The notes under the pieces: generated by a model
The model's database searches: none
What the model saw: only the letters and a program-made list of their open reading frames with translations
Told to the model about the DNA's origin: nothing
Made by a program: the position numbers and the translations under genes
Shown here: piece after piece, positions 44,567-62,326 of the stretch
How the letters are laid out: every line of letters starts with the position of its first letter
How positions within the stretch are numbered: position 1 is the stretch's first letter
Source: Sterolibacteriaceae bacterium
GTDB taxonomy: Bacteria > Pseudomonadota > Gammaproteobacteria > Burkholderiales > Rhodocyclaceae
DNA: 64,000 bases
NCBI GenBank assembly: GCA_043738385.1
Contig: JAYUGL010000167.1
Location: forward strand, 348 to 64,347
Reading direction: 5' to 3'

Positions 44567-44570
44567 CGCG

Positions 44571-48538: not shown

Positions 48539-50104
48539 TCAGGCGGACGGTCCGCCCGGCGCAACCGTGAACAACGCCTCGAACACTTCGCGTGCCTTGG
48601 CGGTATTCATGCGGCCAGCTTCCAGCCAAAGGAAACGTCCGCAGGGCGCGGCGCCAATATCGGCGGCGGCGGTCTGCCGGTCGGTTTTGTCATCGTAAAG
48701 CACAACGACACGACGCAGGTTCGCGACCTTGACCAAGACGCTCAGTTCGTAGCGGCAACCGTGGTTCTGCGATTGAAAGCCGCGCAGGTCCATGAGCACG
48801 ACGTCGCAGCGATTCACCAATGCGGTCAGCGCGGACTCCCAGGTCGTGTCGCGGCAGTAGCACTCGTTCACTCGATAGCGACCGTCCGGGTCGGGCTTGA
48901 GGTCGAAATTGGCCAGACGCTGCGGCACGTCGGGTTCGCTGTTGATGAAGCGTTTGCCCAGTTGCCCGTCGAGAAAAGTGAACAGGTCATCCGGATCGAG
49001 GGTACGGCTGACAAGGTCGGTGCCAGCGATCAGCATGGTGTTGCCGGTGAAGCGCCAGCGCTCGATCACCTGATCGAACAAGGCCTCCAGCTGCGCGTCA
49101 TGCTGAAAGACCCGCAGCACCAGCAAAGTGGCCGGGTTGTCTTCCCGCGGCCGCCAGATCGTCAGCACCCACCAGCCGACGGGGATCCAGAGCCACGGGA
49201 TCAACAAGCTCAGGCCGCTGGTGCCGACACCGGCAAATGCGGGAACGGCATTGCCCATGAGGATGACAAACCAATAGATGGCGAAGAGATAACCGAGATC
49301 GGAGAAACGCTTGTTGCGGTAAGCGCCGGCCATGCGACGACCTAGCGCGAACACCGGCCATGCAAGCAGCGCCCAGGGTGCCAGGGCGCAGAACAGCATC
49401 GTGCCCTTGACGCCGAAGACGTCGACCAATGGCGCCACAACCTGCCAGCTCGTGTTCACGTTGGTGCTGAGGGCCTGGAGCGCGAGGATCGAGGCACTGG
49501 AAAGAACCAGCGCCGGCGGCAACAGATAAGGCGCCACGGCCCGAATGCGACCACTGGCACTGATGATCAGTGTAATGATGAGTGGCACGCCCATCTCGGT
49601 GGACAACCAGCCGACGACCGCTAGCAGCGATTGCTGGGCATTGGAACGCAGCATCACGAGCACGATCATGATCACGAGATATATTGCGATGCCACCCAGC
49701 ACCCGGCCCCAGGGCCAGCGCAGGGTCAAGCCCCAGGCCAGCACCATCGGCCAGCCATAGACCGCGCCGAGCAGCAGTAGCCGATTGACCGAGAACGCCT
49801 TGACCTGAACGATCAAGGCAAACCACGCTTGCGTCAGCGCCACCAACACGCAAACCCCGGTCAGCGCCACCAGAAGGCGCATGGTCACGCGGCGATTTGC
49901 CGCGAGGTCCAACCGCGCTGGCATCCGCGGCGGCAAGGCCAACACCTCGGTAACGCCCGCACGCGCGACATCAGGCGCGGCCCCGCCACGCATCAGGATC
50001 ACCATGCGCCGTCGGTACAACCCGGCCACCACCCACGCAAGGCTGGCGGCGAGGAATACACCCAACATCAGGGCGACGAATAGGTGGCCGCTTTGAATTC
50101 CCAT
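48539..50104 (-). CDS. Multi-pass membrane protein with a C-terminal soluble alpha/beta domain of unknown function
   Basis: About 10 hydrophobic helices over the first ~320 aa, then a ~190-aa domain (LLVLRVFQHD...CDVVLMDLRGF...VVVLYDD) with alternating strand/helix character. No motif recognised. Confidence 0.6.
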   Translation of the reverse strand: MGIQSGHLFVALMLGVFLAASLAWVVAGLYRRRMVILMRGGAAPDVARAGVTEVLALPPRMPARLDLAANRRVTMRLLVALTGVCVLVALTQAWFALIVQVKAFSVNRLLLLGAVYGWPMVLAWGLTLRWPWGRVLGGIAIYLVIMIVLVMLRSNAQQSLLAVVGWLSTEMGVPLIITLIISASGRIRAVAPYLLPPALVLSSASILALQALSTNVNTSWQVVAPLVDVFGVKGTMLFCALAPWALLAWPVFALGRRMAGAYRNKRFSDLGYLFAIYWFVILMGNAVPAFAGVGTSGLSLLIPWLWIPVGWWVLTIWRPREDNPATLLVLRVFQHDAQLEALFDQVIERWRFTGNTMLIAGTDLVSRTLDPDDLFTFLDGQLGKRFINSEPDVPQRLANFDLKPDPDGRYRVNECYCRDTTWESALTALVNRCDVVLMDLRGFQSQNHGCRYELSVLVKVANLRRVVVLYDDKTDRQTAAADIGAAPCGRFLWLEAGRMNTAKAREVFEALFTVAPGGPSA

Positions 50105-50146: not shown

Positions 50147-51088
50147 TCACGACGAACCGCCATCTCGCTTGGCGACGAACTCCACCGGCGTATGCACCGA
50201 ATACCCGCCGCTGATTTCCAGTGTGAAACGTATGCTTTCGGGCGTTACCTGACCGATGTAGTGATGCGTCACCTCCTTCGGTTCCCCGCCGCTGCTGATC
50301 GACTCCAGGCTGCGTGTCACGAAGCTCAGCCACTCGCCCTCCAGCTTTGCCTGTTCTATCGTCAGACGGCCCCCTTCGAATGAGGCCGTGCCGTGCAGCG
50401 CATTGGCCAGGTATTTGAACTCGAACACTTCGTCATACTGGTCGCCCCAGTCGTACTTCACCCGCGCGCTCCAGCGCCCGCTGAGATCCACTGCGGCTTG
50501 GTGCGCCACCGGGGTGCTTGTCGATGTTGCTGGAACAAAGCGCAATGCCGCAAACACACCGACCACGACAATCGCAACGGCCGCGACAATCAGGCGCGCT
50601 CGGCCGAAGCCAGGCTTTGCGTCGTGGGCTTCCGGCGACAACTCCCTCAATCTCGCCACCAGCCGCTCGACATCCGTCCGCCAGTCGGCATCGGACAACA
50701 CCATGGCCTGGTGGCGCGCCAGGCTGGCGATGGCATCGGGCAGATCCTCGCCAGCCGGCATTGCCGCGCCGCCCAACAGCAAGGGGATGACCGGCTTGCC
50801 GGACGCGAGCCCGGCAGCCACCTCGCGGCGAACAAAATCGTCCGGCGCATCGAGTCGTCGCCCGCCGTCGGCGCCGGCCTCCAGCCAGTGGGGTCCGATC
50901 ATCACCAGCATCGCGTGGGCGGACTGCAATTGTCTGTTGATGGCCTCGACGAAGTCCTCGCCGGGCTGAATGTCGTCCACATCGCGGAACACGCTGCCGA
51001 CCCCGAAGGCCGTCTCAAGCGCATCCGCCAGGCGGCCGGCGAAACCGGCGTTGTCGTCGCGACGATAGGAAAGAAAGAATCTGGGCAT
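50147..51088 (-). CDS. TIR domain, single TM, ~120-aa extracytoplasmic beta-rich domain (TIR-D)
   Basis: Internal ATG 51088 (MPRFFLSYRRDD). GRLADAL, DFVRREVAAGL, VIPLLL. TM LIVAAVAIVVVGVFAALRFV. The upstream part of the listed ORF overlaps the previous gene. Confidence 0.8.
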   Translation of the reverse strand: MPRFFLSYRRDDNAGFAGRLADALETAFGVGSVFRDVDDIQPGEDFVEAINRQLQSAHAMLVMIGPHWLEAGADGGRRLDAPDDFVRREVAAGLASGKPVIPLLLGGAAMPAGEDLPDAIASLARHQAMVLSDADWRTDVERLVARLRELSPEAHDAKPGFGRARLIVAAVAIVVVGVFAALRFVPATSTSTPVAHQAAVDLSGRWSARVKYDWGDQYDEVFEFKYLANALHGTASFEGGRLTIEQAKLEGEWLSFVTRSLESISSGGEPKEVTHHYIGQVTPESIRFTLEISGGYSVHTPVEFVAKRDGGSS

Positions 51089-51102
51089 GGAGAGAAACAG
51101 CG

Positions 51103-52464
51103 TTACCCGTTTTGCCCAAGATCCGCGGCGCCGAGGCAAGCGATTTCGGCCAACGACGACTGCACAGCCTTGATCTGGGTCGCGCTCGTTTCGAGCATCC
51201 AGGCGGGCACGTTCAACGCCCATGCTTCCGCCTGCCACTTGGCTGCCGCAGCGGTATCACCCAGCCCCACGGCCGCTTCGCGCAGCGTGGCGACAATCCA
51301 AAAGCGTTTCTCGGCATCGATATCCTTATCGAGCAGCGGTTGCGCGTACTGAATCACCAGGCGCCGGGTGCGTTTTGCCAGCACCGCGTCGGTCATGCCT
51401 TCGTCCCGGTCACCGGCCTTTAGCGCCTTCAAAGCCCGCATGTCCAGCAGATGGGCCAGATTGATGCCGTTGTAGTAGTCCTGCTTGAGATGGAAACCGC
51501 GCTCGCAGGCGGCGATGCTCTCATCGAGGTCCTGTTCCTGGTGGTTGAGATCCCACAGGCGCTTGTGGATGGCGCCCCACAAGCCCAGCGTTTCCGGATC
51601 GTTGGTGGTCGCCGGCGAGAGCTCGCGCAGGATGTCCTTGGCCGCCAGGAGCGCCGCGTCGGGCGTCGGCTGTTGAGACTTGTAGGTGGCGAGCGCGAGC
51701 TGCTGAATGACGAAGCTATCGTTGGGTCGTTGCTTGCGCACTTCCTCAAGCAACCGCTGGGCATTGGCGAAGTCCCCGGAACCGATCCTGCCCAGGGCAT
51801 CATCGAGGACCGACTTGGCGCTCGCGGCTTCCGGTTCCGGGCCTTCAGCGCAGGTGCCGGGGGACAGCTGCGGAGGCCGCATGCGCGCGACGATCGGGGT
51901 CAGGTGGTCTGCAACTGCTGGCCCGGTGCCTCCCGCCGCCACGGCGGCGGGAGGCACCGGGCGGGGCTTTTCCAGCTCCGGTGGAATCAGGTCGGGCAGG
52001 AAGGTATACACCGGGCTATCAATCTCCCCGCTCGCCAGGATGTCGGCGATGGCCTGCTTCAGGTCATCGCGGAAGCGCTTCGCCTCTTGCGCGCCGATGT
52101 CCTCGCCCAGATGCTTGTAGCGGCGAATGGCGATGTGGCCGACATCGAAGGGGTTCTTGAACTGTTCCTCGGCAACGATGATCGTGGCGCGATGTCGCAA
52201 ACCATAGCGGATGCCCAGCTCAAAGGCAGCGTTGACGTTGTAGGTGGATAGATCCGCGATGACCAGATCGGCCTGATACAACTGCCGGTACATCGGCGTA
52301 TCGATGGTGCCGGAGTGCGGAATCTCGTCGGCACGCAGGCATGCCAGACCCGCCGCTTCCACCGCCTCTTTGATGATGGCATAGGAAGCGTCAAGGTCGA
52401 GTACGCGCCCGTCGGTGAAATCGGTCTTCTTGCCAAAGCCCTGGACAACAAAACAAGTAGCCAT
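51103..52464 (-). CDS. TIR-like / nucleoside-deoxyribosyltransferase-like N-terminal domain + TPR-like helical domain (DUF4071-like)
   Basis: ATG 52464 with a GGAGG RBS 5 nt upstream. CFVVQGFGKKTDFTDGRVLDLDASY...DLVIADLS...ELGIRYG N-terminal fold, then a ~250-aa helical repeat region. Confidence 0.65.
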   Translation of the reverse strand: MATCFVVQGFGKKTDFTDGRVLDLDASYAIIKEAVEAAGLACLRADEIPHSGTIDTPMYRQLYQADLVIADLSTYNVNAAFELGIRYGLRHRATIIVAEEQFKNPFDVGHIAIRRYKHLGEDIGAQEAKRFRDDLKQAIADILASGEIDSPVYTFLPDLIPPELEKPRPVPPAAVAAGGTGPAVADHLTPIVARMRPPQLSPGTCAEGPEPEAASAKSVLDDALGRIGSGDFANAQRLLEEVRKQRPNDSFVIQQLALATYKSQQPTPDAALLAAKDILRELSPATTNDPETLGLWGAIHKRLWDLNHQEQDLDESIAACERGFHLKQDYYNGINLAHLLDMRALKALKAGDRDEGMTDAVLAKRTRRLVIQYAQPLLDKDIDAEKRFWIVATLREAAVGLGDTAAAAKWQAEAWALNVPAWMLETSATQIKAVQSSLAEIACLGAADLGQNG

Positions 52465-52490: not shown

Positions 52491-53060
52491 TCAGGCAACT
52501 GCCTGCTTCAGGCCGGTCTCGTAGATCCACTGCCCGCTGCGCGGATCGCGGATGTAGCTCAACTGCTGGCGCCGGTTGGCGCCCTGTCCGGGCGCTTTCA
52601 CCGAGATATGCACCCATCCCGAGTTGGGCCCCTGACGCGGATCGAAGCATTCACAGATGATCTGATCATAGTCGGCAAGGTTGTCGCGCGCCCACTTGGC
52701 CAGTTCCAGTGTGCTCTTGCCGGGGATCTCGACGTCGCAGGCGCAGCCCCGCGTGTGCTGGCTGGTGCTGATCCAGCCAGCCGGCTTTTGTTTCAACGCG
52801 CGCTCGGTCGCCTGGCTGCGGAAAACGCTGTTGGGCGCAAAACTGCCGAACTTGTCGCGCAACACCTGCAAAACATTTCGCGCCAGATACACCGCCGCTT
52901 GCAGTTCGGCGTCGCCGGGAAATCCATTGTCAATACCGAGCCGACTGGCGACTTCGGACTTGGTGAGTTCAAAGACGTGAAAATTCGGCGCGACGAGGTC
53001 TTGCAGGTCCAGCGCCCGGAGCGTGATCTTGTCGAGCGGCGTGGTGGATCGGTCGGTCAT
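52491..53060 (-). CDS. Peptidase M15 (D-Ala-D-Ala carboxypeptidase/endolysin-like) zinc hydrolase
   Basis: Internal ATG 53060 (MTDRSTTPL). Hx6D (HTRGCACD) and distal WVHISV His motifs of the M15 family. The listed ORF's Arg-rich N-terminal extension overlaps the upstream giant gene. Confidence 0.7.
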   Translation of the reverse strand: MTDRSTTPLDKITLRALDLQDLVAPNFHVFELTKSEVASRLGIDNGFPGDAELQAAVYLARNVLQVLRDKFGSFAPNSVFRSQATERALKQKPAGWISTSQHTRGCACDVEIPGKSTLELAKWARDNLADYDQIICECFDPRQGPNSGWVHISVKAPGQGANRRQQLSYIRDPRSGQWIYETGLKQAVA

Positions 53061-53085: not shown

Positions 53086-56000
53086 TCACAGTGCGGCGCG
53101 GACCGACTTGATGGCCTCGGCCGCTGGCAAAGATGCGATGCCGGCGAGTTCGGCCACGAAGTCCAGGTGTTCCAGCACCGACGCGTATTCGCGCGGGCTG
53201 GCGCCACGTTGTGCCGCGGCCCGGTAGCGCGCAACGATCCTGCCCACCGACTGCGTCGCCGCGTTGCCTGTCTGCAAGAGCAAGCGCGCCAGTTCGCAAT
53301 CGGCCTCGCCGACGGCATCCCAGAAGTTGGGGTTCGCCTCCTTACGCGCTGTGGCGATGGCAATCATGCGCTGGCATTGGTCGTCGACAATGCTCCGCCA
53401 ATGGTCACTGCGCGTGCGATCGAGGACGGCGACGAATACCGTGGCAATGGCCCAGTTGGAGAACGGGTAGGGATTCTCGTTGTTGCCCCGCTTGAAGGCC
53501 TGGTGGTAGTAGCTGGCCATATTGACCAGCGCCTCGAAACGCGGTGTCGCGTCGTCGCACACCCAGGCCAGGCGCTTGCAGGCGCCGCCGAGGAGATTGA
53601 GCCGCTCGACCGTCGGCGCGCGCTGGCAGATCACATCCAGTTCCCTGACGGCGTGCTCAATGTCCGCGACGAGACCGCGGCGATCCGCCGCCTTGCCGCG
53701 CTTGCTGGCGCGCAGAGCCTGCCAGCGCTGACCGCAGAGCCGCACCTGGAAGTTGGCGCACTGCTCCACCGCGCGCAGCGGACAATCACCGAGATCAGCA
53801 TGCAACGCCTTGTTCAGCCATTCCACACCCTTGGCATACTCGCCGGTTTCGCCCCAAGCGAAGCCGGCGGCGGCGGCGACGTCGGCACGCGCGGCCCACT
53901 CCCCGCGTTGCGCTTCCGGAGCGCCTGCCAGCAGTGCGTCGATCGTTGCCCGCATGCGCGCCACAGCCTCCACGTCCTCGCCTTTTTCCTTCATCTGCAT
54001 GCGAATCGATTCGCGATGGTTGTCGAGTTCGGCGACCAGCTCGGCCGGTGCCAGGAAGCTGGGCTGCGACGGCCGCGCGGAACCTTCGCCGCGGAGGCGG
54101 TAGCCATGGTCGCCGTAGCATTGATATGCGCCCCAGGTATTCACCTCGGGAAAGCTGGCCCAGACCGCGGCGCGCGCCGCTTTCACCGCTTCGCCAAAAG
54201 TCATGGGGCAGTCGGGGTCAAGCATATGCCGGTAGAAACTCTCGGCAAACGCGCCCGCCGCCCCGTCGTCAACCGCCCAGCCCGCCGCCACCACCGCCTT
54301 GACCCCCATATTGATGAACTGTACGCCCAGATTCGCCGCCAGCGCACTGTATTCGCCGTGTCCTTCGGCCTGCGTCTTGCCCAGGTGACAGCAGTTGATG
54401 AACACGAGCTCCGGCACCCAGCGCATCTGTTCGATATCGCCCGGCGTCAGGAAGGTGTTCTTGCCGATGACCATGCCCGACACGCGCCGCTCCGGTTTGG
54501 AACTGGCCGTGATGTCCTGAACGGACTGCGCTCCGTCATCGTGAGCAGCTCCGGTGTCGTCGTTCAGGACGAATTCGTGCTCGCCGTGGCCGGCCAGGTG
54601 CAGGATGCGCCAGGCATCCTTGTGCAGTCCGTCCATCAGATCTTCGGCGTTCTCATCGATGCAGTCCCTGACCCGGAAGCCGCGCCGGCTGAGCAGGGCG
54701 GACACTTTCTGCGCCTCGTCCCGTGCGCCGGGCAGTTCCGGAAACTCGCGCCAACCGCCGAGGTCGGGATTGCCTACGACGAACGCCGTGGCTTCGGTCG
54801 CGTGATGGGGGTTGAGCCGGAACTGGGGCGTCTTCAACTGGCGGATCAGGCCCGCGCTCACCGCCGGCGGACGTCCGCTCTGGCTCCAGCGATCCTCGAT
54901 CAATTCCCACGGATAGCGCGCGGAGACTTCGTCTACCAACAGGACCATGTCGGTCTGTTGGGGCGCAAGTTCCTTGAGCTGATTGGGCAGCAGCATCTCG
55001 AACAGCGTCTTGGCCACTTCCGAATTGCTGGCCGGCGAGCGTGAGGCCTGGCGAATGAAATCCTCGGCGAACCGCAATTGGCCCGTGGCATGGGTAATCT
55101 CGGCGCGGGCGCGGTCGGTCGCCGAGATGAAGCGCAAGCCGCCATCGCCTTTCTCTTCGATGATCTCCAGCCGGCCCCACCAACCCGGCGCATCGTCGTA
55201 GCGCAGGCGACGGCGACAGCCCTGACCTTCCTCGACCACCCCGGCGCTCCAGTTGACCGCAGTCGCCAGTTGACCGTCCGCCAGGAGTGCTTTGAGGGCC
55301 TTGGCGGCGGCAAGCGCGGCGTCCTCGAAAACGTCCACGAACTCGATCCTGTCAACCAGCACCTTGTCCGCCAGTTCAGCCTTCTCAAGTCGCTCGTTGG
55401 CGAGCACGGCACCGCGCAGGATGACTTCGACACAATCCCGCACGCTCGTGCCGCCCGGGCCGGAGCCGACCAACAGGCAGGAAACCGCCGCCGAACGCAC
55501 ACCGCCGCTAGGGCCGAAACGCGCATCGGGCCACCGGGCCACCTGTAGCGCGTAGTCGAGCAGCGCGGCGCACACCGTGGTCTGGAGCACCGTGGTGGAC
55601 AGGCTGCCGACTTGGCCGAGACCGATGACGATGGCACCGCCGGGCTTGCCGCTCGGCTGTTCGTTGAAAAAGACGGCATGCGTTCCGGGCTGGCCGGGGT
55701 AGAGCCCGAGCCCCAGACTCTTCGTCAAAACGCGGCCGAGCCGCCCGTCCAGCGCAGCTTCGGCATTGACGATGACGTCGCCCAGGTAGTGGCCGACCAG
55801 CACCGGGTATCTGGCGTAGGAGAGATCGCCATGCACGACGCTGACCTGGATCCTCGGTGTCGTCATCTGATCGGCGGCATCCTCGACCGGCGCGCCGGGG
55901 CCAAAGCCCATGCTGCGCATGTCGCGCTGGTCGGGAATGCTGTCGGTCGGCGGCAGCGTGGGCATAACGAATTTTTCGGCGCCGGTCGTTGCGGCGCGCG

Positions 56001-58590
56001 CGCCACCGGGCGGCGTGGCGGGCAGCAGCGATGTCTTGCCGGTCATCAGCAAATCAAGGTAGCCCGGCAGGACGCGCTTCTGGGTGCACAAGGCGTCGTG
56101 CGCGGTATCCTCCGCATACCAGACCGGCACGTCGGGCAGAAAGCCCGATTTCCAGCTCACCGTGCCATCGCCGCATGGGGTGGCGAGAAACTCCAGGCGC
56201 TTGCGTCCCGCCAGCAGTGGATCCTCGTAGTCGGCTACCTGGTAGTCGATCACGGTCGCATCCTGGCAGCCGGCGACGTAGATCATGAACTTGGGGTCGG
56301 CGGGTGCCGCTTTGAGCAGCGCCCAGGTATCGCGCGCCTGTTGCAGCACCGCCTCGTCCGTCACCGGCCAACGGGCACTCAATGCCTTCCTGAGATCCTG
56401 CCACAGCGCGCGCTGCGCGAAATCCCGACTGTCGTCATCGAAGGGCAGAAGTTCCACCAGCCCGGGAAACGCGCGTACCAGATCGATGATTTCATCGGTG
56501 TCGTGCGTCATGTCGAGCAGGCTGAGGTTCGCCTCGGTCGCGTTGTAACCTGTCAGCCAGCGCACCGCTTCGTAGGAGCCGCGGTTGGGTGTACCGAGCA
56601 TCAGGAAGCGGCTGTTCGGCAGCGCCTGGATGCGCCGCCACAGCGCCGCGCCGCGGCTGCCGTCGACGATCATGGCACGCGTCACCAGGCCGCCCATCGA
56701 GTGAGCGACGATGTGTACCGGCTGCTGAGTGCGCTCGATCTCCGGCAACCAGGTCTCCAATTTGTCGGCGAGTTTCGCCGCCGCATCGCGCACCGACAGC
56801 CGCCAGTCATAGGGGAATATCTCGACGCGATGGCTGCGCGCGAGGAATTCCAGTAGCGGGCCGTAGAAATCGTCGAGCAGATCGACCGGCTCGACGCCGG
56901 CTACGTCCATATGAATCTTCGCCAGCCCGCCCCGCAACAAGCTCCAGTAGTTCAACCAGACACCCTCGCCCTGAACGTTCAGAGCACTACCCATGGTCCC
57001 TGGCAGCACTACCGCCAGCGGCCGTGGTTCGGCGGCGGTGCGACTGCGACGCACGGCAGCGCGCCAGCGCGGCTCTGCCTGCGGCGCTTCCTGAATCGGC
57101 TGGAAACCGCCGTCGTCATCGTCGGCCCGGGTGAGGCCCGCCACCAGCCAGCGCACGCTCTTGTCGTTGGCGAAATAGCTGAAGTGACTAACGTTGGCGC
57201 CCTTGTCTAACTGGAAGCGCGCACCCTTCTCCGGACGACGCAAGCCACCGGCCATGGAGCCGGTGTTCACCACCAGGTCGTGATCGGCGCCATAGAACCA
57301 GTCGGTGGCCAGCAGCTTGACCTGGCTCCACAAGCCCTCGCCCTCGATGTCGCCGGCGATGACGCTCAAGTCGGCGCTTGTCACCAGCGCCGGATGCAGC
57401 AGCAGGCGCGTCAACGCGGAACCCGGCATCATGGCTTCAAGCCCTGGCAGCGTGCGCGGATCGGTGCGTTCCTTTACCACCGCCAGCATGAAGTCGGCAA
57501 CATCGCCGACGAGACCGTCGCCACTCAGGAAATTCAGCACCGACAGCCAACGGTCGAGCCGCCCAGAAGCCAGCGTGGTGCCGCGCGCCGGACAGGCCAC
57601 GCGTACGAAACGACCAACCTTCAACTGGCGGTCGTCAAGTTCGTTCAATAGTTGTTGCAGGTTCTTGCGGTCGGCTTGGTAGCCCAAATCGCGCGCCTTG
57701 GCATCATTCGCCGCCAGCGGTCCGAGGTCCAGTTGCCGGGCGATGGTCCGGTCGGCGGCGAAGAGCGTCTGTAGCAGTTCCGGACGTAGCAGGTCGTTCG
57801 CGCGATCGCGCTGGCCGAGGCAAAGCAGCTCGCCGACCAGGCCGCCGCGCGAATGACTGACGAGATGAATCTCGGCGCCCTTCGGCAGCCGCTGCACCAG
57901 ATCCAGCGCGTTGCGGATCGGGCTTTCCGTCATGCTGCGATGCTCCCACGCAAAGACCCGATCGCCATATTTCTCGGCCAGCGTGCGGCGTGCGGCAGCG
58001 CCGACGGCACCGTTCCACAGCTTGCCGAAGCTGCCCTCGCAACTCGACGCGGTGCCATGCAGGAAGACCAGGACCGGCTTGTCCGTGGCGATGCGCGCGT
58101 TTTTTTCGGTCGGCGAAAGCGCAAAAGTATCGCCGAGTGCGCAACGGTAGAGTCCCGGTGCCCTGCCTTTGAGCATTTTTTCTTCAAACGCCCGGCCGAT
58201 GGCGCCGGCCGCCTTTTCTTTCAGATCCACGCCGAAGAACTCGAGCGCCTTGATGCCCAATCCCATCCACCCGCGCTGGCCGCGGGCGCCTGCCCGGGCG
58301 CCGCGCGCCGACGGCTGGAGCTCGATTTCCCAGGCATCGCCGCCATCGCGGCGCACCTCCTTGCGGCCGCTTTCGCGGATCAGATCGTCGGCACGCGTCC
58401 ACAGCACGAAGCCGTTGTCGAGCTCGACCTTCACCACCTCGTCGCTGTGCGCCTCGATCTCCTCGGCGGTCGCGCCCCGCGCAGCGCCAGGCACCACGCG
58501 GCGGTGGCTGGTGATGACGACCGCCTTGCTGGTGGCCGGCGCGGTAGCCGATGACTGTTGGGTGCCACGGATGCGATAGCTGATGGTCAT
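53086..58590 (-). CDS. 1,834-aa multidomain protein: two lipase-type alpha/beta hydrolases + central alpha/beta insert + CHAT (caspase-like) protease + C-terminal helical repeats
   Basis: ATG with AGGAG RBS. SHSRG (Ser247) with DHDLVV/SHF. AHSMGG (Ser631) with GDGTV and AHD (LCAT/PGAP1-like). CHAT dyad HLAGHG (His1335) and FINCCHLG (Cys1400/1401). Residues ~1510-1834 are helical. Confidence 0.85.
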   Translation of the reverse strand: MTISYRIRGTQQSSATAPATSKAVVITSHRRVVPGAARGATAEEIEAHSDEVVKVELDNGFVLWTRADDLIRESGRKEVRRDGGDAWEIELQPSARGARAGARGQRGWMGLGIKALEFFGVDLKEKAAGAIGRAFEEKMLKGRAPGLYRCALGDTFALSPTEKNARIATDKPVLVFLHGTASSCEGSFGKLWNGAVGAAARRTLAEKYGDRVFAWEHRSMTESPIRNALDLVQRLPKGAEIHLVSHSRGGLVGELLCLGQRDRANDLLRPELLQTLFAADRTIARQLDLGPLAANDAKARDLGYQADRKNLQQLLNELDDRQLKVGRFVRVACPARGTTLASGRLDRWLSVLNFLSGDGLVGDVADFMLAVVKERTDPRTLPGLEAMMPGSALTRLLLHPALVTSADLSVIAGDIEGEGLWSQVKLLATDWFYGADHDLVVNTGSMAGGLRRPEKGARFQLDKGANVSHFSYFANDKSVRWLVAGLTRADDDDGGFQPIQEAPQAEPRWRAAVRRSRTAAEPRPLAVVLPGTMGSALNVQGEGVWLNYWSLLRGGLAKIHMDVAGVEPVDLLDDFYGPLLEFLARSHRVEIFPYDWRLSVRDAAAKLADKLETWLPEIERTQQPVHIVAHSMGGLVTRAMIVDGSRGAALWRRIQALPNSRFLMLGTPNRGSYEAVRWLTGYNATEANLSLLDMTHDTDEIIDLVRAFPGLVELLPFDDDSRDFAQRALWQDLRKALSARWPVTDEAVLQQARDTWALLKAAPADPKFMIYVAGCQDATVIDYQVADYEDPLLAGRKRLEFLATPCGDGTVSWKSGFLPDVPVWYAEDTAHDALCTQKRVLPGYLDLLMTGKTSLLPATPPGGARAATTGAEKFVMPTLPPTDSIPDQRDMRSMGFGPGAPVEDAADQMTTPRIQVSVVHGDLSYARYPVLVGHYLGDVIVNAEAALDGRLGRVLTKSLGLGLYPGQPGTHAVFFNEQPSGKPGGAIVIGLGQVGSLSTTVLQTTVCAALLDYALQVARWPDARFGPSGGVRSAAVSCLLVGSGPGGTSVRDCVEVILRGAVLANERLEKAELADKVLVDRIEFVDVFEDAALAAAKALKALLADGQLATAVNWSAGVVEEGQGCRRRLRYDDAPGWWGRLEIIEEKGDGGLRFISATDRARAEITHATGQLRFAEDFIRQASRSPASNSEVAKTLFEMLLPNQLKELAPQQTDMVLLVDEVSARYPWELIEDRWSQSGRPPAVSAGLIRQLKTPQFRLNPHHATEATAFVVGNPDLGGWREFPELPGARDEAQKVSALLSRRGFRVRDCIDENAEDLMDGLHKDAWRILHLAGHGEHEFVLNDDTGAAHDDGAQSVQDITASSKPERRVSGMVIGKNTFLTPGDIEQMRWVPELVFINCCHLGKTQAEGHGEYSALAANLGVQFINMGVKAVVAAGWAVDDGAAGAFAESFYRHMLDPDCPMTFGEAVKAARAAVWASFPEVNTWGAYQCYGDHGYRLRGEGSARPSQPSFLAPAELVAELDNHRESIRMQMKEKGEDVEAVARMRATIDALLAGAPEAQRGEWAARADVAAAAGFAWGETGEYAKGVEWLNKALHADLGDCPLRAVEQCANFQVRLCGQRWQALRASKRGKAADRRGLVADIEHAVRELDVICQRAPTVERLNLLGGACKRLAWVCDDATPRFEALVNMASYYHQAFKRGNNENPYPFSNWAIATVFVAVLDRTRSDHWRSIVDDQCQRMIAIATARKEANPNFWDAVGEADCELARLLLQTGNAATQSVGRIVARYRAAAQRGASPREYASVLEHLDFVAELAGIASLPAAEAIKSVRAAL

Positions 58591-58637
58591 GACAGGCGCT
58601 CCTCGTTCAAATTCGGTGGGTCCGCCGGACGGCGTGG

Positions 58638-59429
58638 TCAGGTGAACACGTCGAATCGGCGGGCGGCCGCGCTGCCGAATATCTGCGGGTGCTGCGGCAG
58701 TTTGCTGGAAGGCAGGTAGGCACTGATCAGTTTGAACCAGTCGTCATAATTGGACGGCGCGTCCTCGCGCAGCGTCTTCAGCGCGTAGTAGGTGAAGGCG
58801 CCGTTAGGCCGGCCATGGAAGCGCGTATCCCAGCTGTATTCGGAATCCTCGGCGCCAGCCAAAAGCAGATCGCCGCCGCTGCGCTTGAATCCGTGCACCA
58901 GGGTCTTTGGCCGCTTCGCGGTTGCAGGCAGCTTGCCCGCCGGCATCCAGTCCTGCAAGGGCATGTAGCGGGCGCGCGGCATGCCGGGGGCGGGGTCGGT
59001 TGCATCGCCGCGGGTTACCGAACCGGAGTGGCAGCTGTCGGAGAGCAGCAGGACGCGCACGCCATTCGCGCGCCGGTCGAAAAGTTGATGGATCTCGTCA
59101 TCGAGCAGTGGCCCCGCGCTGCTGATATCCCAGGGGCAGAGACCCTCATCACGGCCATCGGGCTCATCGCCGGAACTGTCCGGCACCCAGGTGCCATGCC
59201 CGGAGTAGGTGATGACCACGGTATCGCCTGACGACACGCCGGAGATCGCCGCGCCGATTAACGCCGCCATGTTAGCCTTGGTGGCCTGGCCGTCGAGCAA
59301 CTTGGTAATGGTGAAGCCGCGCTTGGCGAGTTCCGTCGCCCAGTCATTGGCATCGTTGACGCAGCCGGACAAATCGTTCTGGGTGCCGGGATAGTCGTTG
59401 ATGCCTATGCAAAGTGCCTTCTTCGCCAT
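58638..59429 (-). CDS. Caspase-like peptidase (C14 family, metacaspase/orthocaspase type)
   Basis: ALCIGINDY, His motif YSGHG (His78, nt 59196-59198) and Cys motif LSDSCHSG (Cys133, nt 59031-59033). AAGGAGGA RBS. Confidence 0.9.
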   Translation of the reverse strand: MAKKALCIGINDYPGTQNDLSGCVNDANDWATELAKRGFTITKLLDGQATKANMAALIGAAISGVSSGDTVVITYSGHGTWVPDSSGDEPDGRDEGLCPWDISSAGPLLDDEIHQLFDRRANGVRVLLLSDSCHSGSVTRGDATDPAPGMPRARYMPLQDWMPAGKLPATAKRPKTLVHGFKRSGGDLLLAGAEDSEYSWDTRFHGRPNGAFTYYALKTLREDAPSNYDDWFKLISAYLPSSKLPQHPQIFGSAAARRFDVFT

Positions 59430-59480
59430 GTTGTGTCCTCCTTGGGGCAGGCTTGTGCCACGGACCGACGCACTGTTGGT

Positions 59481-59509
59481 AATCTAGCGATGCAAACAAC
59501 TTTGGTCAA
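59481..59509 (-). promoter_or_regulatory. Candidate internal sigma70 promoter upstream of the caspase-like gene
   Basis: Minus strand TTGACC (59509-04), 17 nt, TAGATT (59486-81), inside an AT-rich 138-nt gap. A 6-bp inverted repeat GTCACG-cc-CGTGAC lies just upstream. Confidence 0.45.
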
Positions 59510-59567
59510 TGATACTGATACGTAAATATTGGTTTGTCACGCCCGTGACTTATCGGACCCACCGGCA

Positions 59568-60389
59568 TCAGAGGCTTCTGGTGTCGATCCAGCAGACCCG
59601 GCCGCTGCGGCGTTTGACTTCTTCGACCATATGGCCGGTGCCACCGGCGCCCTCGGTACCCGCGCCGTTCCAAAGGCAGACGAGACTTACCTTGTCCGGG
59701 CCGCAGACGAGGGCGGTATAGAGCAGCCAGAGATTGCAACGCTCGTAGGGGTAGTCCTCGCTGCTGCCGCGCGGCGGCTGGCCCAGCACCTCCGGTGCGG
59801 CGCGCGGGGGTGCCGCCAGCGCGGCTCTCGACGCCAGGTAACGGCGGTGCCAATCTTCGCCGCAGCCAACCACGGAGGCCGCGATGAACTCCGGTTCGGC
59901 AAAGGGTTGCAGCCAGAACACCTTCACGCCACGTTGCCGACAGGCTTCGGTGAACAGCAGGTCGCCGCCGCATGCGCCCTGCGTCAGCGCGAGATCTTGC
60001 GACCCGGCAGCGAGCCGTTCGAGCGCTTCGGCAATTCTTTGCGCCGCCTGCGCTACCTTGTTGGCGGGAAAACGTGGCGTCGGCCGATCGGGGGCATCGA
60101 TCATATGGCCACTGAACACGAAGACCTGCCTGGGCTGCCAGGTTTCTGCGGCGCGATTCGGAACAGCGGTCCCTTGCCGGCACAGGGCCTGCTCGCTCAG
60201 GCCCTTCGCATTGCCAGCGTTGATAACCAAGGCACGTTCGAGCAGTTCGAGCGCGAACGCGTAGTGCCCCGCCGCACGTAACGCCGCGGCCGCCTCGATC
60301 CAAGTATCGGCGCGAAGCTCCGCTGCCGGCGCCTCGTCGGCGAGCAGCAGCAGATCACCGATGCGGTTCGCCGAGCGGGCGAGACCCAC
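59568..60389 (-). CDS. Hypothetical protein with SLOG/LOG-like Rossmannoid domain (tentative) and short N-terminal helical region
   Basis: This frame is the only protein-like one of three overlapping ORFs. VFVFSGHMID strand, TQGACGGDLLFTEA and GAGGTGHMVEE resemble the GGxxG / GGxGTxxE loops of LOG/DprA/SLOG folds. GTG start. Confidence 0.5.
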   Translation of the reverse strand: MGLARSANRIGDLLLLADEAPAAELRADTWIEAAAALRAAGHYAFALELLERALVINAGNAKGLSEQALCRQGTAVPNRAAETWQPRQVFVFSGHMIDAPDRPTPRFPANKVAQAAQRIAEALERLAAGSQDLALTQGACGGDLLFTEACRQRGVKVFWLQPFAEPEFIAASVVGCGEDWHRRYLASRAALAAPPRAAPEVLGQPPRGSSEDYPYERCNLWLLYTALVCGPDKVSLVCLWNGAGTEGAGGTGHMVEEVKRRSGRVCWIDTRSL

Positions 60390-60437
60390 CCGCGCGTGCC
60401 AGGAATCGTTCGTTGCGATCGTAGCCCCCTTCGGTGT

Positions 60438-61832
60438 TCAACTCCAGGCGCGATTGCCAAGCCCGGCGACGTAGTCGTTGATGAACTTCGCCCAGGCGTT
60501 CTTCTTCGCGAAGTCGAGCGTGCGGTAGAGGCCGCAGACCTTCTTCTTCGGGAAGTAGATCGAGGCGCCGTGCGAATGCGCCATCTTCGCGCCTTTCCAG
60601 CCCGATCGCAGGATCATCTGCGCCGCCGCCGCCTTCACCGCCGCACAGGCGGCCGAAACATCGGCAACGGTGACGAGCTTGGCCAGGCCGTCGCAAAGGT
60701 CAACCAGGTCGACGTAATCGTCGTAGGGTGACGAGTACTCCTGCACCCCGCCGCGTACCGACTGGAGCGCGGTGAAGACCTTCGCGTCGGTCATCGCCTT
60801 GCTGAGCGCGGCGCCGAGGCTATTCACGCCGGCGGCAACGGCATCGATCTTGGCAAGATCCGTGGCGGCGAAGGTGACGCCGGAATTAGCGCCATAAGAC
60901 GCGATGTACTGGGTAACGGCGAGCTTCGAAAGTTCGGCCGGAGACATGGCCGGATTCTTGGCCAGCGCGGTCAGGATGCGGTCGTAAGGCCAGCCTTCGT
61001 TTGGCTCTTCTTCCTGCGAACCCACGGTGTAGGCAGCGACGCCCTTAACCTGGTAGCCGACTTCGAGCATGCTCATCAGGCAGGCGTCGAAACCGAGGAT
61101 GTCGATCTTGCGGCCGAGCAGTTTCTTGATGTCGAGCATGACGCGCTTCATCTCGATGTTGTCGATGTAGTCCTGCGCCTGATCGTCGAAGGCGATGGCG
61201 CGCGACTGCGCCATTTTCTGAACCGTGGTCCGGAACAGCGCGCGACCGCCGCGTCGAATCGCCGCCCGTGCCTGCGCCAGAGGAACCGCGGCCGTCTTCT
61301 TGCGCCCGGCGCCCGCGCGCGCCGACACGCCGCCCTTGGCATCGAGCGTGTAGCCCTTGCGGATCACCGGCGGCGCGTTGCCACCGAAATAGTCGCCGCC
61401 GGCGGCATAAAGGTTCGAATCGTCCCAACCGGCGCCGTGGTTCCAGAGTACCGCCAGGTAATGCTGCGCCGGGTAGGTCTTGATGCCCCAGGTCAGAAAG
61501 TCCTTCAGGACCTTGGGGTCGCCCGTATTCGTCTCGCCCAGATCACCGACGACGTCGGCCGCGACCGGGGTACCCTTGCGCAGCAGATAGCGTTTCGTGG
61601 TTTCCTTGCTGCCCGCCCGATCAAACTGGGCAACGACGTTGATCGAGGCGCTGGAGCCGACCTTCTTCATCTCCAGCAGATCGGTCACTCCGGCGCCGTC
61701 GAGATTGTTGTCGCCGGCCAGATAGACCATGAGGGTCCAGCTGGCATTCGCTTTGGCTTTGGCCGGAGCCGCTTTTTTCGTCGTCGCTCTTCCTGCCGGC
61801 GTCTTTGTTGTCGTTGCGCGTGCCATAGTCAT
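60438..61832 (-). CDS. Clostripain-like cysteine peptidase (C11 family)
   Basis: WTLMVYLAGDNNL, His motif LWNHGAGW, Cys motif GFDACLMSMLE. N-terminal Lys/Ala/Thr-rich low-complexity segment. Confidence 0.85.
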   Translation of the reverse strand: MTMARATTTKTPAGRATTKKAAPAKAKANASWTLMVYLAGDNNLDGAGVTDLLEMKKVGSSASINVVAQFDRAGSKETTKRYLLRKGTPVAADVVGDLGETNTGDPKVLKDFLTWGIKTYPAQHYLAVLWNHGAGWDDSNLYAAGGDYFGGNAPPVIRKGYTLDAKGGVSARAGAGRKKTAAVPLAQARAAIRRGGRALFRTTVQKMAQSRAIAFDDQAQDYIDNIEMKRVMLDIKKLLGRKIDILGFDACLMSMLEVGYQVKGVAAYTVGSQEEEPNEGWPYDRILTALAKNPAMSPAELSKLAVTQYIASYGANSGVTFAATDLAKIDAVAAGVNSLGAALSKAMTDAKVFTALQSVRGGVQEYSSPYDDYVDLVDLCDGLAKLVTVADVSAACAAVKAAAAQMILRSGWKGAKMAHSHGASIYFPKKKVCGLYRTLDFAKKNAWAKFINDYVAGLGNRAWS

Positions 61833-61946
61833 TCTCCCTTACGGTTGGATGTGTGGATCATGCGTACTGCCGCCGGTTGACAATACTCTCACAACATATC
61901 GGCTTCAATGGATGATCGATGCCGACAATCGGTCGCCGGCACGTAA

Positions 61947-62326
61947 CGCCTCGCGAATACCCGCGGCACGGACGGACGGATCCTCCGCGCCGACGATGAT
62001 ACGTTTCTCCGGCAGAATGAAGATGACCACCAATTCGAATACGGTATCTTCCGCCACGGCTTGGTCCGCGCCTGCCGTGACGCGTGCGCATGGCGGTGCC
62101 CACCGGCATGGCGGCGAACTTCTGGGACGACCAGTTCCGTCTGCTCGTGAACGGCGTGCCGCGCGCGCCCGACTCGAACCTGAATCTGACGGTGGAGGGC
62201 GGCGCCGCATTGGACGGTGACGTCACCTTCGAAGTACCGGATACGGCGCAGTCGCTCACGCTTCGGATCCAGCATGGCGCGGACGCCGCGGCCGACCTGC
62301 CGCTGAAGATGGAACCGAAAAAATGA
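61947..62326 (+). pseudogene. Possible frameshifted gene remnant (beta-sandwich-like C-terminal fragment)
   Basis: Two adjoining protein-like stretches in different frames: ...ILRADDDTFLRQNEDDHQFEYGIFRHGLV, then ...NFWDDQFRLLVNGVPRAPDSNLNLTVEGGAALDGDVTFEVPDTAQSLTLRI. Both have G/C-rich third positions but no intact long ORF. Confidence 0.3.

What the first reader, a model, noticed from the sequence alone, without database searches (positions are those of the whole stretch)
59568..60389. SLOG/LOG-like Rossmannoid protein wedged between two clan-CD peptidases: candidate receptor for a TIR-derived nucleotide
The 273-aa product has a short helical N-terminus. It is followed by VFVFSGHMID, TQGACGGDLLFTEAC (residues 137-150) and WNGAGTEGAGGTGHMVEEV (residues 240-258). 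The last two resemble the GGxxG and GGxGTxxE phosphate-binding loops of the LOG/DprA/SLOG superfamily. SLOG domains are established sensors of TIR-made cADPR isomers (ThsA in Thoeris), and TIR-associated SLOG families are described. Here the protein has no fused effector and is flanked by C11 and C14 peptidases, which suggests a different wiring (sensor acting on proteases in trans).
Basis: partly seen in the sequence, partly recalled or inferred. Interest (0 to 1): 0.65.

Follow-up and report, generated by a model that had tools for sequence, protein, structure and literature searches.

The report
Stand-alone SLOG protein in defence island
This is a real, conserved small protein with the nucleotide-binding SLOG fold, a cut-down relative of a widespread three-part protein, which sits in a bacterial immune gene cluster of NAD-cleaving enzymes and caspase-like proteases and probably reads or edits the cluster's nucleotide alarm signal; the kind of system has already been described by computational work.

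Summary
The ORF 59568..60389 (-) is a genuine gene. It has more than 450 close homologues and about 3,500 clusters at 50% identity. dN/dS is about 0.25, and its GC3 matches the neighbouring genes. The two overlapping alternative ORFs are not coding.

AlphaFold2 (pLDDT 91) gives five N-terminal helices and a five-stranded Rossmannoid domain. Its best Foldseek matches are all SLOG members: YpsA, DprA, ShosA, Moco carrier and LOG. No curated model reaches threshold. The only recurrent hits are weak ones to YspA-type SLOG and DprA-like models.

The protein is a trimmed, free-standing form of a roughly 660-aa protein found in 59 of 80 species loci. That protein has a MilB/TIR-like NAD+ glycosidase, then TPR-S, then SLOG. 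The window encodes the glycosidase–TPR-S protein separately.

The gene set SLOG + glycosidase–TPR-S + patatin + C14 caspase + lipase/CHAT/TPR-S giant recurs across phyla. The C11 neighbour is lineage-specific.

Most likely the protein is a nucleotide-binding regulatory subunit of an NAD+-derived signalling defence system. Whether it is a receptor or an enzyme is unresolved, and direct control of the flanking peptidases is unsupported. TPR-S systems with SLOG, patatin and caspase partners were already catalogued, so this is a new member of a known kind.

The parts
59568..60389 (-). SLOG-family gene (273 aa from the GTG; the stop codon is 59568-59570). The start may lie further upstream, up to about 60419/60422.
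   Evidence: ORF. Homologues. Frame and selection tests. AlphaFold2 pLDDT 91, pTM 0.89. Start-codon comparison.
60165..60389 (-). N-terminal helical, TPR-like module (aa 1-75). It is homologous to the segment that links the glycosidase domain to TPR-S in the three-domain relatives.
   Evidence: Helices in aa 2-72. Weak TPR_2 hit, E 0.013. 48% identity to P0124 aa 185-267, E 4e-12.
59571..60137 (-). SLOG Rossmannoid core (aa 85-273) with five strands (89-93, 133-136, 156-161, 234-238, 265-267). Family-wide conserved residues are G94, H95, D98, R102, R106, F107, P108, D132, G141, G142, D143, N219, W240, G242, G249, G250 and T251.
   Evidence: fold. (conservation). (weak YAcAr and DprA-like profile hits). 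50% identity to P0124 aa 457-666, E 3e-59.
60438..61832 (-). Clostripain-like C11 peptidase immediately upstream. Its stop codon is in frame with the SLOG ORF. The catalytic motifs WNHGAGW and GFDACLM are present.
   Evidence: Pfam Peptidase_C11, E 1e-54. Sequence. Adjacency also seen in L007, L008 and L093.
58638..59429 (-). C14 caspase-like peptidase downstream, with the SGHG and DSCHSG catalytic motifs present.
   Evidence: Pfam Peptidase_C14, E 7e-24. PADLOC caspase, E 1.6e-14. Homologues near SLOG genes in 22 loci.
53086..58590 (-). 1834-aa giant protein: DUF7379 + LCAT/PGAP1-like lipase + CHAT protease + C-terminal TPR-S.
   Evidence: Pfam. Homologues near SLOG genes in 23 loci.
52491..53060 (-). 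M15_3-like peptidase (189 aa from the ATG at 53060).
   Evidence: Pfam, E 1.3e-6. Start position. Conserved after the giant gene in L007, L021 and L088.
51103..52464 (-). 'Core Tpr': a MilB/DrHyd/TIR-like glycosidase domain (N-x-N...E144 motif) followed by TPR-S. It is the separately encoded counterpart of the N-terminal two-thirds of the three-domain relatives.
   Evidence: Pfam TPR-S, E 1.7e-24, and MAP3K_TRAF_bd. PADLOC TIR, E 1.7e-7. 35% identity to the P0124 N-terminus, E 9e-21. Glu invariant in 64 of 64 sequences. The same motif is catalytic in BcTpr.
50147..51238 (-). TIR_2 protein (probable start at 51088).
   Evidence: Pfam TIR_2, E 1.2e-14. Start position.
48539..50104 (-). 521-aa protein with no family hit. 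It is conserved in the related Rhodocyclaceae island.
   Evidence: No Pfam hit. Homologue in L007, E 7e-211.
47348..48517 (-). Patatin-like phospholipase.
   Evidence: Pfam, E 2.8e-23. Orthologues lie next to SLOG and core Tpr genes in L008, L089 and L096.
46385..47191 (-). TIR_2 protein.
   Evidence: Pfam, E 1.9e-16.
44514..46118 (+). 534-aa protein with a C-terminal TIR_2 domain, at the edge of the GC-rich island.
   Evidence: Pfam, E 2.7e-13. GC profile.

Best explanation
The gene encodes a two-part protein. A short helical, TPR-like clasp packs on a SLOG-superfamily Rossmannoid domain of the YpsA/YspA/DprA-like branch.

It is a free-standing, internally deleted version of the C-terminal module of a widespread three-domain protein. 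That protein has a MilB/DrHyd/TIR-like NAD+ glycosidase, then TPR-S, then SLOG.

The gene belongs to an NAD+-derived-nucleotide signalling defence or suicide island. The island contains the glycosidase-TPR-S 'core Tpr', three TIR_2 proteins, a patatin lipase, C11 and C14 peptidases, and a lipase/CHAT/TPR-S giant.

Proposed mechanism: on infection the glycosidase-TPR-S and/or TIR enzymes convert NAD+ into an ADP-ribose-derived nucleotide. The SLOG pocket (loops SGH-x2-D-x3-R-x3-RFP, G-G-D and G-G-T) binds it. The SLOG subunit acts in trans with TPR-S proteins that lack their own SLOG (core Tpr and the CHAT giant). In this way it gates or tunes effector firing, including a likely CHAT-to-caspase proteolytic cascade.

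Shown here: the gene is real and under purifying selection; its fold; the family architectures; and the conserved gene set. Inferred: the identity of the ligand; binding rather than catalysis; the protein partners; and the protease cascade.
For: Gene reality.

SLOG fold: the model has pLDDT 91 and pTM 0.89. All top Rossmannoid matches in the PDB are SLOG members, led by YpsA 2nx2 (E 1e-4, TM 0.61). Viral DprA-like and YspA SLOG models also match. The recurrent sub-threshold profile hits are PF10686 YAcAr (8 of 50 members), phrog_289 (10 of 50, annotated only as a GTP-binding domain) and phrog_768 DprA-like (5 of 50). The GxD motif is 98% conserved and matches the YpsA-clade signature described in PMC6459960.

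Derivation from the three-domain protein: the window protein aligns in two pieces to P0124, at aa 185-267 and 457-666. The P0124 N-terminus is homologous to the window's 453-aa protein. 59 of 80 species loci carry the fusion.

Sensory position of the TPR-S-SLOG module: it sits C-terminal to interchangeable effectors (patatin, kinase, ParA-like, AAA_35+TIR, SLATT_1). It also sits N-terminal to a sigma54 AAA+ activator domain.

Context: every free-standing (mini or standalone) SLOG locus whose neighbourhood was looked up has a neighbouring TPR-S protein without a SLOG domain. The set SLOG + core Tpr + patatin + C14 + giant recurs from Rhodocyclaceae to Nitrospira. SLATT_3 neighbours occur in 14 loci and TIR_2 neighbours in 10.

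Precedents: the ThsA SLOG domain binds gcADPR, and SAVED-CHAT activates PCaspase (text read). BcTpr makes a cADPR isomer through the same NPN...E motif.
Against: No ligand binding or activity was tested. No curated SLOG model reaches its threshold. The TM-scores are moderate, at 0.4-0.6.

The invariant His, Asp and Arg residues could equally mark an active site.

The giant and core Tpr proteins have TPR-S domains. From memory of Burroughs & Aravind 2020, these were themselves predicted to be the signal sensors, which would leave the SLOG role open.

Many three-domain genes occur without any protease neighbour. Free-standing SLOG genes are not enriched for protease neighbours compared with fused ones (my count from the table).

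The BcTpr data come from an un-reviewed preprint.
Confidence: 0.55

Rival explanations
1. The SLOG domain is an enzyme rather than a receptor. It makes, trims or destroys the nucleotide signal, for example by cleaving an N-glycosidic bond as LOG does. That would set the firing threshold or reset the system.
For: A dense set of near-invariant polar residues lies in the loops that form the SLOG pocket: H95, D98, R102, R106, D132, D143 and N219, plus R217 at 76%. The SLOG superfamily includes N-glycosidases such as LOG and PpnN, and viral SLOGs are proposed to degrade cADPR-type signals (PMC9503650). In TPR-S-less relatives the glycosidase Glu is lost while the SLOG motifs are kept. This is compatible with SLOG being the active part.
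Against: The Glu of the LOG PGGxGTxxE motif is not conserved (E257 in 28% of members). There is no hit to LOG models in Pfam or NCBIfam. The nearest structural relatives, YpsA and DprA, are binders and not known enzymes. The module sits in the sensory position of a sigma54 activator.
Confidence: 0.27
2. The protein is a nucleotide receptor that directly binds and switches on the flanking C11 and/or C14 peptidases in trans.
For: The three genes are tightly spaced on the same strand as C11-SLOG-C14. C11-SLOG adjacency is kept in L007, L008 and L093. C14 lies within 8 kb of SLOG genes in 22 loci. Type IV Thoeris shows that a TIR product can activate a caspase-like protease.
Against: C11 was found in only 4 of the 80 species loci (L007, L008, L016, L018), and it is adjacent to the SLOG gene in only two of them. 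In L008 and L089 the SLOG gene has no C14 nearby. C14 always travels with the CHAT/TPR-S giant, which is a more obvious activator. In most genomes the SLOG domain is covalently tied to the glycosidase-TPR-S protein and not to a peptidase.
Confidence: 0.12
3. It is a housekeeping SLOG protein, such as a LOG-type cytokinin or nucleotide nucleosidase or a DprA-like DNA-binding protein, that lies among defence genes by accident.
For: Some Nitrospira homologues sit next to a methyltransferase, an M32 peptidase and fur.
Against: Those neighbours reflect a shared insertion site. The same sites carry SLATT_3, TIR_2, C14 and giant genes. There are no LOG or DprA model hits. The DprA accessory domains are absent. 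The fusions are to conflict-system domains.
Confidence: 0.03
4. It is not a gene in this frame. One of the overlapping ORFs (59506..60303 minus, 59529..60281 plus) is expressed instead.
For: Both ORFs exist, as is common in GC-rich DNA.
Against: Third-position bias of substitutions, dN/dS of about 0.25 and a GC3 pattern that fits only the 273-aa frame. There are hundreds of protein-level homologues across phyla.
Confidence: 0.01

Closest known systems
TPR-S ('core Tpr') conflict systems catalogued by Burroughs & Aravind 2020 (J Bacteriol 202:e00365-20), including their 'YspA-Tpr', 'Patatin-Tpr', TIR-Tpr and caspase-containing assemblies. BcTir/Tpr of Bacillus cereus is the tested example (bioRxiv 10.1101/2023.05.26.542521).
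   Same: The window encodes a glycosidase + TPR-S protein with the same N-x-N...E motif that is catalytic in BcTpr. It also has neighbouring TIR genes, a patatin, a caspase and a SLOG-superfamily partner of the YspA-like branch.
   Different: The SLOG domain here reaches no curated YspA or SLOG model threshold. It is usually fused C-terminal to TPR-S in a roughly 660-aa protein. In the window it is a free-standing form that lacks TPR-S. The original paper could not be read here, so I cannot say whether this exact domain was described. No SLOG partner has been tested experimentally.
ThsA SLOG domain of type I Thoeris
   Same: A SLOG-fold domain in a TIR-containing defence locus. ThsA SLOG binds the TIR-made gcADPR and switches on the fused effector.
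   Different: There is no SIR2 or transmembrane effector fused here. The family's fusions are to a glycosidase, TPR-S, patatin, a kinase and others. The ligand is unknown. In the window the domain is a separate polypeptide.
YpsA (B. subtilis, PDB 2nx2) and the YspA/cpYpsA-related SLOG families
   Same: YpsA is the best structural match. The GxD/E pocket signature is present. Weak recurrent hits to PF10686 are seen. The family is associated with SLATT 2TM proteins.
   Different: About 16% identity. There is a large helical insert between strands 3 and 4. The family has its own SGH-D-R-RFP loop. There is no cell-division context.
Type IV Thoeris (TIR + caspase-like protease) and the type III-B CRISPR SAVED-CHAT to PCaspase cascade
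   Same: Nucleotide-signal-controlled clan-CD proteases act as executioners. The pairing of CHAT with a caspase resembles the recurrent giant + C14 pair here.
   Different: In those systems the sensor (a C-terminal domain or SAVED) is fused to the protease. Here the CHAT protein carries TPR-S, and the SLOG domain is on another protein.
LOG / PpnN nucleotide N-glycosidases
   Same: The same superfamily fold and similar Gly-rich loops.
   Different: The catalytic Glu of PGGxGTxxE is not conserved. There are no model hits.

Membership tests
SLOG (SMF/DprA/LOG) superfamily | Three-layer Rossmannoid alpha/beta domain with a five-stranded parallel sheet, structurally closest to known SLOG members | tested here: met
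   The AlphaFold2 model has five strands alternating with helices. The top Rossmannoid Foldseek hits are YpsA, DprA, ShosA, Moco carrier, TM1055 and LOG. Viral DprA-like and YspA SLOG models also match.
SLOG (SMF/DprA/LOG) superfamily | Gly-rich nucleotide-binding loops after strand 2 (GxD/E in the YpsA clade) and after strand 4 (GGxGT-like) | tested here: met
   G141-G142-D143 are 90-98% conserved. G249-G250-T251 are 90-98% conserved. The YpsA signature is described in PMC6459960.
SLOG (SMF/DprA/LOG) superfamily | Significant match to a curated SLOG-clan sequence model | tested here: not met
   No Pfam or NCBIfam hit for the window protein. The best result is PF10686 YAcAr, in 8 of 50 relatives at E >= 0.003, below threshold. 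phrog_768 DprA-like hits 5 of 50 relatives at E >= 0.01. A profile-profile search (HHsearch) could not be run.
LOG phosphoribohydrolases (PF03641/TIGR00730) | PGGxGTxxE motif with a catalytic Glu, plus a catalytic Arg | tested here: not met
   The Glu position (E257) is conserved in only 28% of the family and R217 in 76%. There are no LOG model hits.
ThsA-type Thoeris sensor | SLOG domain fused to a SIR2 or transmembrane effector | tested here: not met
   No effector is fused in the window protein. Relatives are fused to a glycosidase, TPR-S, patatin, a kinase, SLATT_1 or TIR, and never to SIR2 among the ten tested.
ThsA-type Thoeris sensor | A TIR (ThsB-like) signal-generator gene in the same locus | tested here: met
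   There are three TIR_2 genes, at 44514-46118, 46385-47191 and 50147-51238. TIR_2 neighbours occur in 10 related loci. ThsB_TIR genes are present in L089.
ThsA-type Thoeris sensor | Binding of a TIR-made cADPR isomer | not testable with these tools
   This needs ITC, DSF or a co-crystal with the purified protein.
TPR-S / core-Tpr conflict system (Burroughs & Aravind 2020; BcTir/Tpr) | A protein with an N-terminal MilB/DrHyd-like glycosidase (NPN...E) followed by a TPR-S array | tested here: met
   For 51103-52464: TPR-S E 1.7e-24 and MAP3K_TRAF_bd E 6e-8; PADLOC TIR E 1.7e-7; N138-x-N140...E144 with the Glu invariant in 64 of 64 sequences; the same motif is catalytic in BcTpr. The fold search for the N-terminal domain was uninformative.
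TPR-S / core-Tpr conflict system (Burroughs & Aravind 2020; BcTir/Tpr) | Accessory TIR, patatin, SLOG-family or caspase genes beside the core Tpr | tested here: met
   All four kinds are present in the window. The same set recurs in L008, L089, L094 and L096. The catalogue is summarised.
TPR-S / core-Tpr conflict system (Burroughs & Aravind 2020; BcTir/Tpr) | Anti-phage activity and NADase / cADPR-isomer production | not testable with these tools
   This needs reconstitution and phage challenge.
DprA recombination mediator | Rossmann domain flanked by a SAM-like N-terminal domain and a winged-helix C-terminal domain, in a competence or recombination context | tested here: not met
   The N-terminus is a TPR-like helical hairpin and there is no C-terminal extension. 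The context is a defence island.

The most novel reading that the evidence does not exclude
The free-standing SLOG protein is a detachable nucleotide-receptor subunit. It docks through its retained TPR hairpin onto TPR-S proteins that lack a SLOG domain, above all the 1834-aa lipase/CHAT giant. This would put a CHAT-to-caspase proteolytic cascade under the control of an NAD+-derived second messenger through a receptor supplied in trans. No characterised Thoeris, CBASS or CRISPR-linked protease system is known to be wired this way.
Probability: 0.15. Interest if true: 0.6.

Novelty: new member of a known kind. Interest (0 to 1): 0.4.

Why it matters
The SLOG domain family identified here is large. 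It was found in at least 561 species genomes and about 3,500 clusters at 50% identity. It has no curated model and no experimental data.

It sits at the centre of a widespread bacterial system that combines NAD+-cleaving enzymes, the TPR-S scaffold (which matches the Pfam model MAP3K_TRAF_bd; from memory, this is the domain inherited by animal ASK kinases) and caspase/CHAT proteases.

Knowing whether it senses, makes or destroys the signal would clarify two things. One is how NAD+-derived messengers are coupled to protease-based cell suicide in bacteria. The other is what the TPR-S module actually does.

For annotation, the practical gains are a domain assignment for thousands of proteins annotated as 'hypothetical' or 'TRAFs-binding', and a corrected picture of this island.

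Tried and rejected
- Direct scans of the protein against Pfam, NCBIfam and PADLOC gave only a weak TPR hit.
- Sequence and profile searches of the PDB gave only designed TPR proteins or noise.
- hhalign of the family profile against a single E. coli PpnN LOG domain was uninformative, with probability 0.1. No LOG or DprA genes were present in the 1.4 Mb of held loci from which a comparison profile could be built.
- The key paper (Burroughs & Aravind 2020, PMC7685563) is not held. Searches for 'TPR-S' or 'aGPT-Pplase' found nothing useful.
- The AlphaFold2 model of the 453-aa core Tpr had a poorly resolved N-terminal domain. Its fold search was swamped by generic TPR hits, so the MilB/TIR-like fold of that domain rests on the PADLOC hit, the motif and the preprint.
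- The PDB sequence search with the core Tpr found nothing.
- The promoter and terminator scan of 58.4-62.7 kb was at chance level.
- I considered that the free-standing SLOG could be a decaying remnant. I rejected this because dN/dS is about 0.25 and all motifs are kept across independent free-standing lineages.
- I considered TGA read-through from C11 into SLOG. The two ORFs are in frame in the window and in L007 but not in L008, so this is probably coincidence.
Full report
**Observation**

One motif is a single residue off in numbering. It lies between a Peptidase_C11 gene (60438..61832, Pfam E 1e-54) and a Peptidase_C14 gene (58638..59429, E 7e-24) on the same strand.

The frame is coding:
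- Differences from orthologues in L007 and L008 pile up at third codon positions (56/38/109 and 56/53/130).
- The GC pattern by codon position (0.72/0.54/0.76) resembles that of the neighbouring genes. The two overlapping alternative ORFs do not show this pattern.
- Nei-Gojobori dN/dS is about 0.25 against three orthologues.
- The protein has 452 homologues at E<=1e-3 in the 90%-clustered collection. A profile finds 3,575 representatives of 50%-identity clusters.

The annotated start is doubtful. Residues conserved in homologues (NDSWHARV) lie upstream of the GTG. A 98%-identical orthologue starts 11 codons earlier at a GTG where the window reads ACG. A GAAGGGGG Shine-Dalgarno-like stretch is kept upstream.

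**What the protein is**

No Pfam, NCBIfam or PADLOC model matches it, apart from a weak TPR hit at aa 27-64. PDB sequence searches also fail.

AlphaFold2 with a 40-sequence alignment gives a confident model (pLDDT 91, pTM 0.89). It has five helices in aa 2-72, then a beta-alpha-beta domain with strands at 89-93, 133-136, 156-161, 234-238 and 265-267.

Foldseek against the PDB ranks YpsA (2nx2; E 1e-4, probability 1.0, TM 0.61 on the target) first. It is followed by DprA (3uqz, 4ljk), ShosA, the Moco carrier protein, TM1055 and a type-II LOG. All of these are SLOG-superfamily members. The remaining hits are TPR proteins matching the N-terminus, or noise. Against viral models the best named hits are DprA-like, 'YspA cpYpsA-related SLOG' and DUF2493 proteins.

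At the sequence level, the recurrent sub-threshold hits among 50 diverse family members are these:
- PF10686 YAcAr (YspA-type SLOG), 8 members, best E 0.003.
- phrog_289, 10 members, annotated only as a 'GTP-binding domain', and phrog_768 'DprA-like', 5 members.

Family-wide conservation highlights G94, H95, D98, R102, R106, F107 and P108 after strand 1. It also highlights G141-G142-D143 after strand 2 and G249-G250-T251 after strand 4. The G-x-D motif is the signature given for the YpsA clade's predicted nucleotide pocket (PMC6459960). The Glu that completes the catalytic LOG motif is not conserved (E257, 28%).

I therefore place the domain in the SLOG superfamily, on the YpsA/YspA/DprA-like side. 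It is not a LOG enzyme.

**Where it comes from**

The protein aligns to the 667-aa P0124 in two blocks. Its helical N-terminus matches P0124 aa 185-267 (48% identity, E 4e-12). Its SLOG core matches aa 457-666 (50% identity, E 3e-59). About 190 residues of TPR-S are skipped.

The N-terminus of P0124 (aa 8-174) is 35% identical (E 9e-21) to the N-terminal domain of the window's own protein at 51103..52464. That protein also has TPR-S (E 1.7e-24) and a PADLOC TIR hit (E 1.7e-7).

In 59 of the 80 species loci retrieved, the SLOG domain is the C-terminus of such a roughly 660-aa three-domain protein. The N-terminal domain has an invariant ...NPNVWYELG... motif, with the Glu present in 64 of 64 sequences. 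A preprint on the B. cereus BcTir/Tpr system reports several things about the same N80-P81-N82...E86 motif. It lies in a MilB-like glycosidase domain. N82A and E86A abolish NAD+ depletion, cADPR-isomer production and phage defence. cADPR binds BcTpr.

Shorter relatives form a series:
- glycosidase + helical linker + SLOG without TPR-S (P0016, P0080, P0127), in which the glycosidase Glu is replaced by A, Q or R;
- linker + SLOG, which is the window type;
- SLOG alone, about 200 aa.

The window protein is thus a trimmed, free-standing copy of the C-terminal module. The high pTM suggests that the retained helices and the SLOG domain form one unit.

**Architectures and neighbourhoods**

The TPR-S-SLOG module follows interchangeable N-terminal domains: patatin, protein kinase, ParA-like ATPase, AAA_35+TIR and SLATT_1. 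In one protein it precedes a sigma54 AAA+ activator domain. One relative has SLOG followed by TIR_2.

My phmmer screen and clustering of 82 non-redundant loci gave these counts:
- a C14 caspase in 22 loci;
- a homologue of the window's 1834-aa DUF7379/LCAT-lipase/CHAT/TPR-S giant in 23;
- SLATT_3/DUF4231 in 14;
- TIR_2 in 10;
- at least one of these in 37.

The methyltransferase, M32 peptidase and fur neighbours seen in Nitrospira reflect a shared insertion site.

Free-standing SLOG genes (mini or standalone) lie beside a TPR-S protein that lacks SLOG in every locus whose neighbourhood I looked up:
- the window (giant and core Tpr);
- L007 (giant);
- L008 (C11-SLOG-core Tpr-patatin);
- L089 (core Tpr-SLOG-patatin amid many TIR genes);
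- L091 (SLOG-giant-DUF4062/TPR-C14);
- L094 (core Tpr overlapping SLOG by 4 nt);
- L095 (SLOG and core Tpr about 3.7 kb apart);
- L096 (SLATT_3-SLOG-core Tpr-patatin-TPR-C14-giant).

L088, which carries the two-domain form P0016, also has a giant homologue nearby.

C11 is present in only a few loci: L007, L008, L016 and L018.

The window's island runs from about 44.5 kb to 62 kb and is richer in GC than the rest of the window. It also holds three TIR_2 genes, a patatin, a conserved 521-aa unknown and an M15_3-like peptidase. All three clan-CD peptidases keep their His and Cys motifs (sequences).

**Mechanism**

Several observations favour a ligand-binding regulatory role:
- The module sits where sensors sit in effector-sensor proteins and in sigma54 activators.
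- Its nearest structural relatives are binders.
- ThsA offers a direct precedent for a SLOG domain reading a TIR-made cADPR isomer.
- The covalent or operonic tie to an NAD+ glycosidase that makes a cADPR isomer supplies a candidate ligand.

I therefore propose the following. The protein binds an ADP-ribose-derived nucleotide made by the core Tpr and/or TIR enzymes. Acting in trans with SLOG-less TPR-S proteins, it gates or tunes effector activation. The recurrent CHAT + C14 pairing suggests a proteolytic cascade like SAVED-CHAT to PCaspase.

The main rival is that the SLOG domain is catalytic and makes or removes the signal. The invariant His, Asp and Arg residues allow this. Nothing here excludes it except the missing LOG Glu and the arguments from the module's position.

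Those neighbours are not the constant partners.

**Comparison with what is known**

The preprint's survey of the Burroughs & Aravind 2020 dataset lists 78 core-Tpr operons. They include TIR-Tpr, YspA-Tpr (5), Patatin-Tpr (4), LSDAT, calcineurin and caspase-containing assemblies. The kind of system, including a SLOG-superfamily partner, is therefore already described computationally. From memory, that paper predicts TPR-S to sense NAD+-derived signals and links it to the ASK signalosome. I could not read it.

What is added here:
- a structural assignment of this unmodelled domain;
- its derivation by internal deletion from the three-domain protein;
- its large size as a family;
- the consistent pairing of free-standing SLOG genes with SLOG-less TPR-S proteins in the loci examined.

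**Verdict**

The SLOG assignment is supported. The receptor idea is plausible but untested. The proposed protease wiring is not supported. This is a new member of a known kind, of moderate interest.

Noticed in passing
window 60387-60440 (-): The C11 stop codon (TGA, 60440-60438) is in frame with the SLOG ORF. Conserved residues (NDSWHARV) are encoded between it and the annotated GTG at 60389. A 98%-identical orthologue (L093) starts at a GTG where the window has ACG (60422-60420). A GAAGGGGG Shine-Dalgarno-like stretch is retained upstream. The window gene may therefore use a non-canonical start (ATC at 60419) or be shortened by 11 residues.
   Followed up: partly
window ~44500-62000: A GC-rich block (62-66% against 57-60% elsewhere) is packed with conflict-system genes. 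These are three TIR_2 proteins (44514-46118 +, 46385-47191 -, 50147-51238 -), a patatin (47348-48517 -) and a conserved 521-aa unknown (48539-50104 -). It is probably a single mobile defence island.
   Followed up: partly
window 62634-64000 (-): The gene upstream of the cluster runs off the window end. Its visible start reads ...VVQNSWGKGWGASGF..., which looks like the C-terminal motif of a papain-like (C1) peptidase (judged from memory). About 430 aa follow, with only faint alpha/beta-hydrolase hits. It could be yet another peptidase/lipase fusion.
   Followed up: no
window 61833-62633: An 800-nt stretch lies between the upstream gene and C11 with no convincing ORF. Two weak terminator-like hairpins at about 62330-62383 (-) are at chance level. 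This may be the promoter region of the C11-SLOG-C14 operon.
   Followed up: partly
P0016, P0080, P0127 (relatives; L088 for P0016): In relatives that lack TPR-S (glycosidase + linker + SLOG, 416-476 aa), the otherwise invariant glycosidase Glu of NPNxxxE is replaced by Ala, Gln or Arg. The SLOG motifs stay intact. The glycosidase may be dead in these forms.
   Followed up: partly
L004, L038, L042, L045, L070, L076, L096 (Nitrospira loci): At one conserved chromosomal site, next to an O-methyltransferase gene, different Nitrospira genomes carry different subsets of one set of genes. The set is SLATT_3, a three-domain or SLOG-only gene, core Tpr, patatin, TIR_2, C14 and the giant. This looks like a hot spot with cassette gain and loss.
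   Followed up: partly
window 52491-53363 and 51103-52650 (-): The mechanical ORFs overstate two genes. The M15_3-like peptidase most likely starts at 53060 (189 aa, as in L001). The glycosidase-TPR-S protein most likely starts at 52464 (453 aa, MATCF...). The TIR_2 gene probably starts at 51088. With these starts the gaps between these genes are 14-29 nt, and the other same-strand gaps from C11 to TIR_2 are 47-138 nt.
   Followed up: yes
L001/L007 10061-11331, compared with window 59430-59567: The closest sequenced relative (a Rhodocyclaceae MAG) has two extra genes (60 aa and 344 aa, no Pfam hit) between the SLOG gene and C14. The window has only a 138-nt gap there.
   Followed up: no
L018:10700-11305 and 13 other loci: An unannotated protein of about 200 aa (no Pfam hit) recurs immediately downstream of the three-domain gene in 14 loci. 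It is a possible further component of the system.
   Followed up: no
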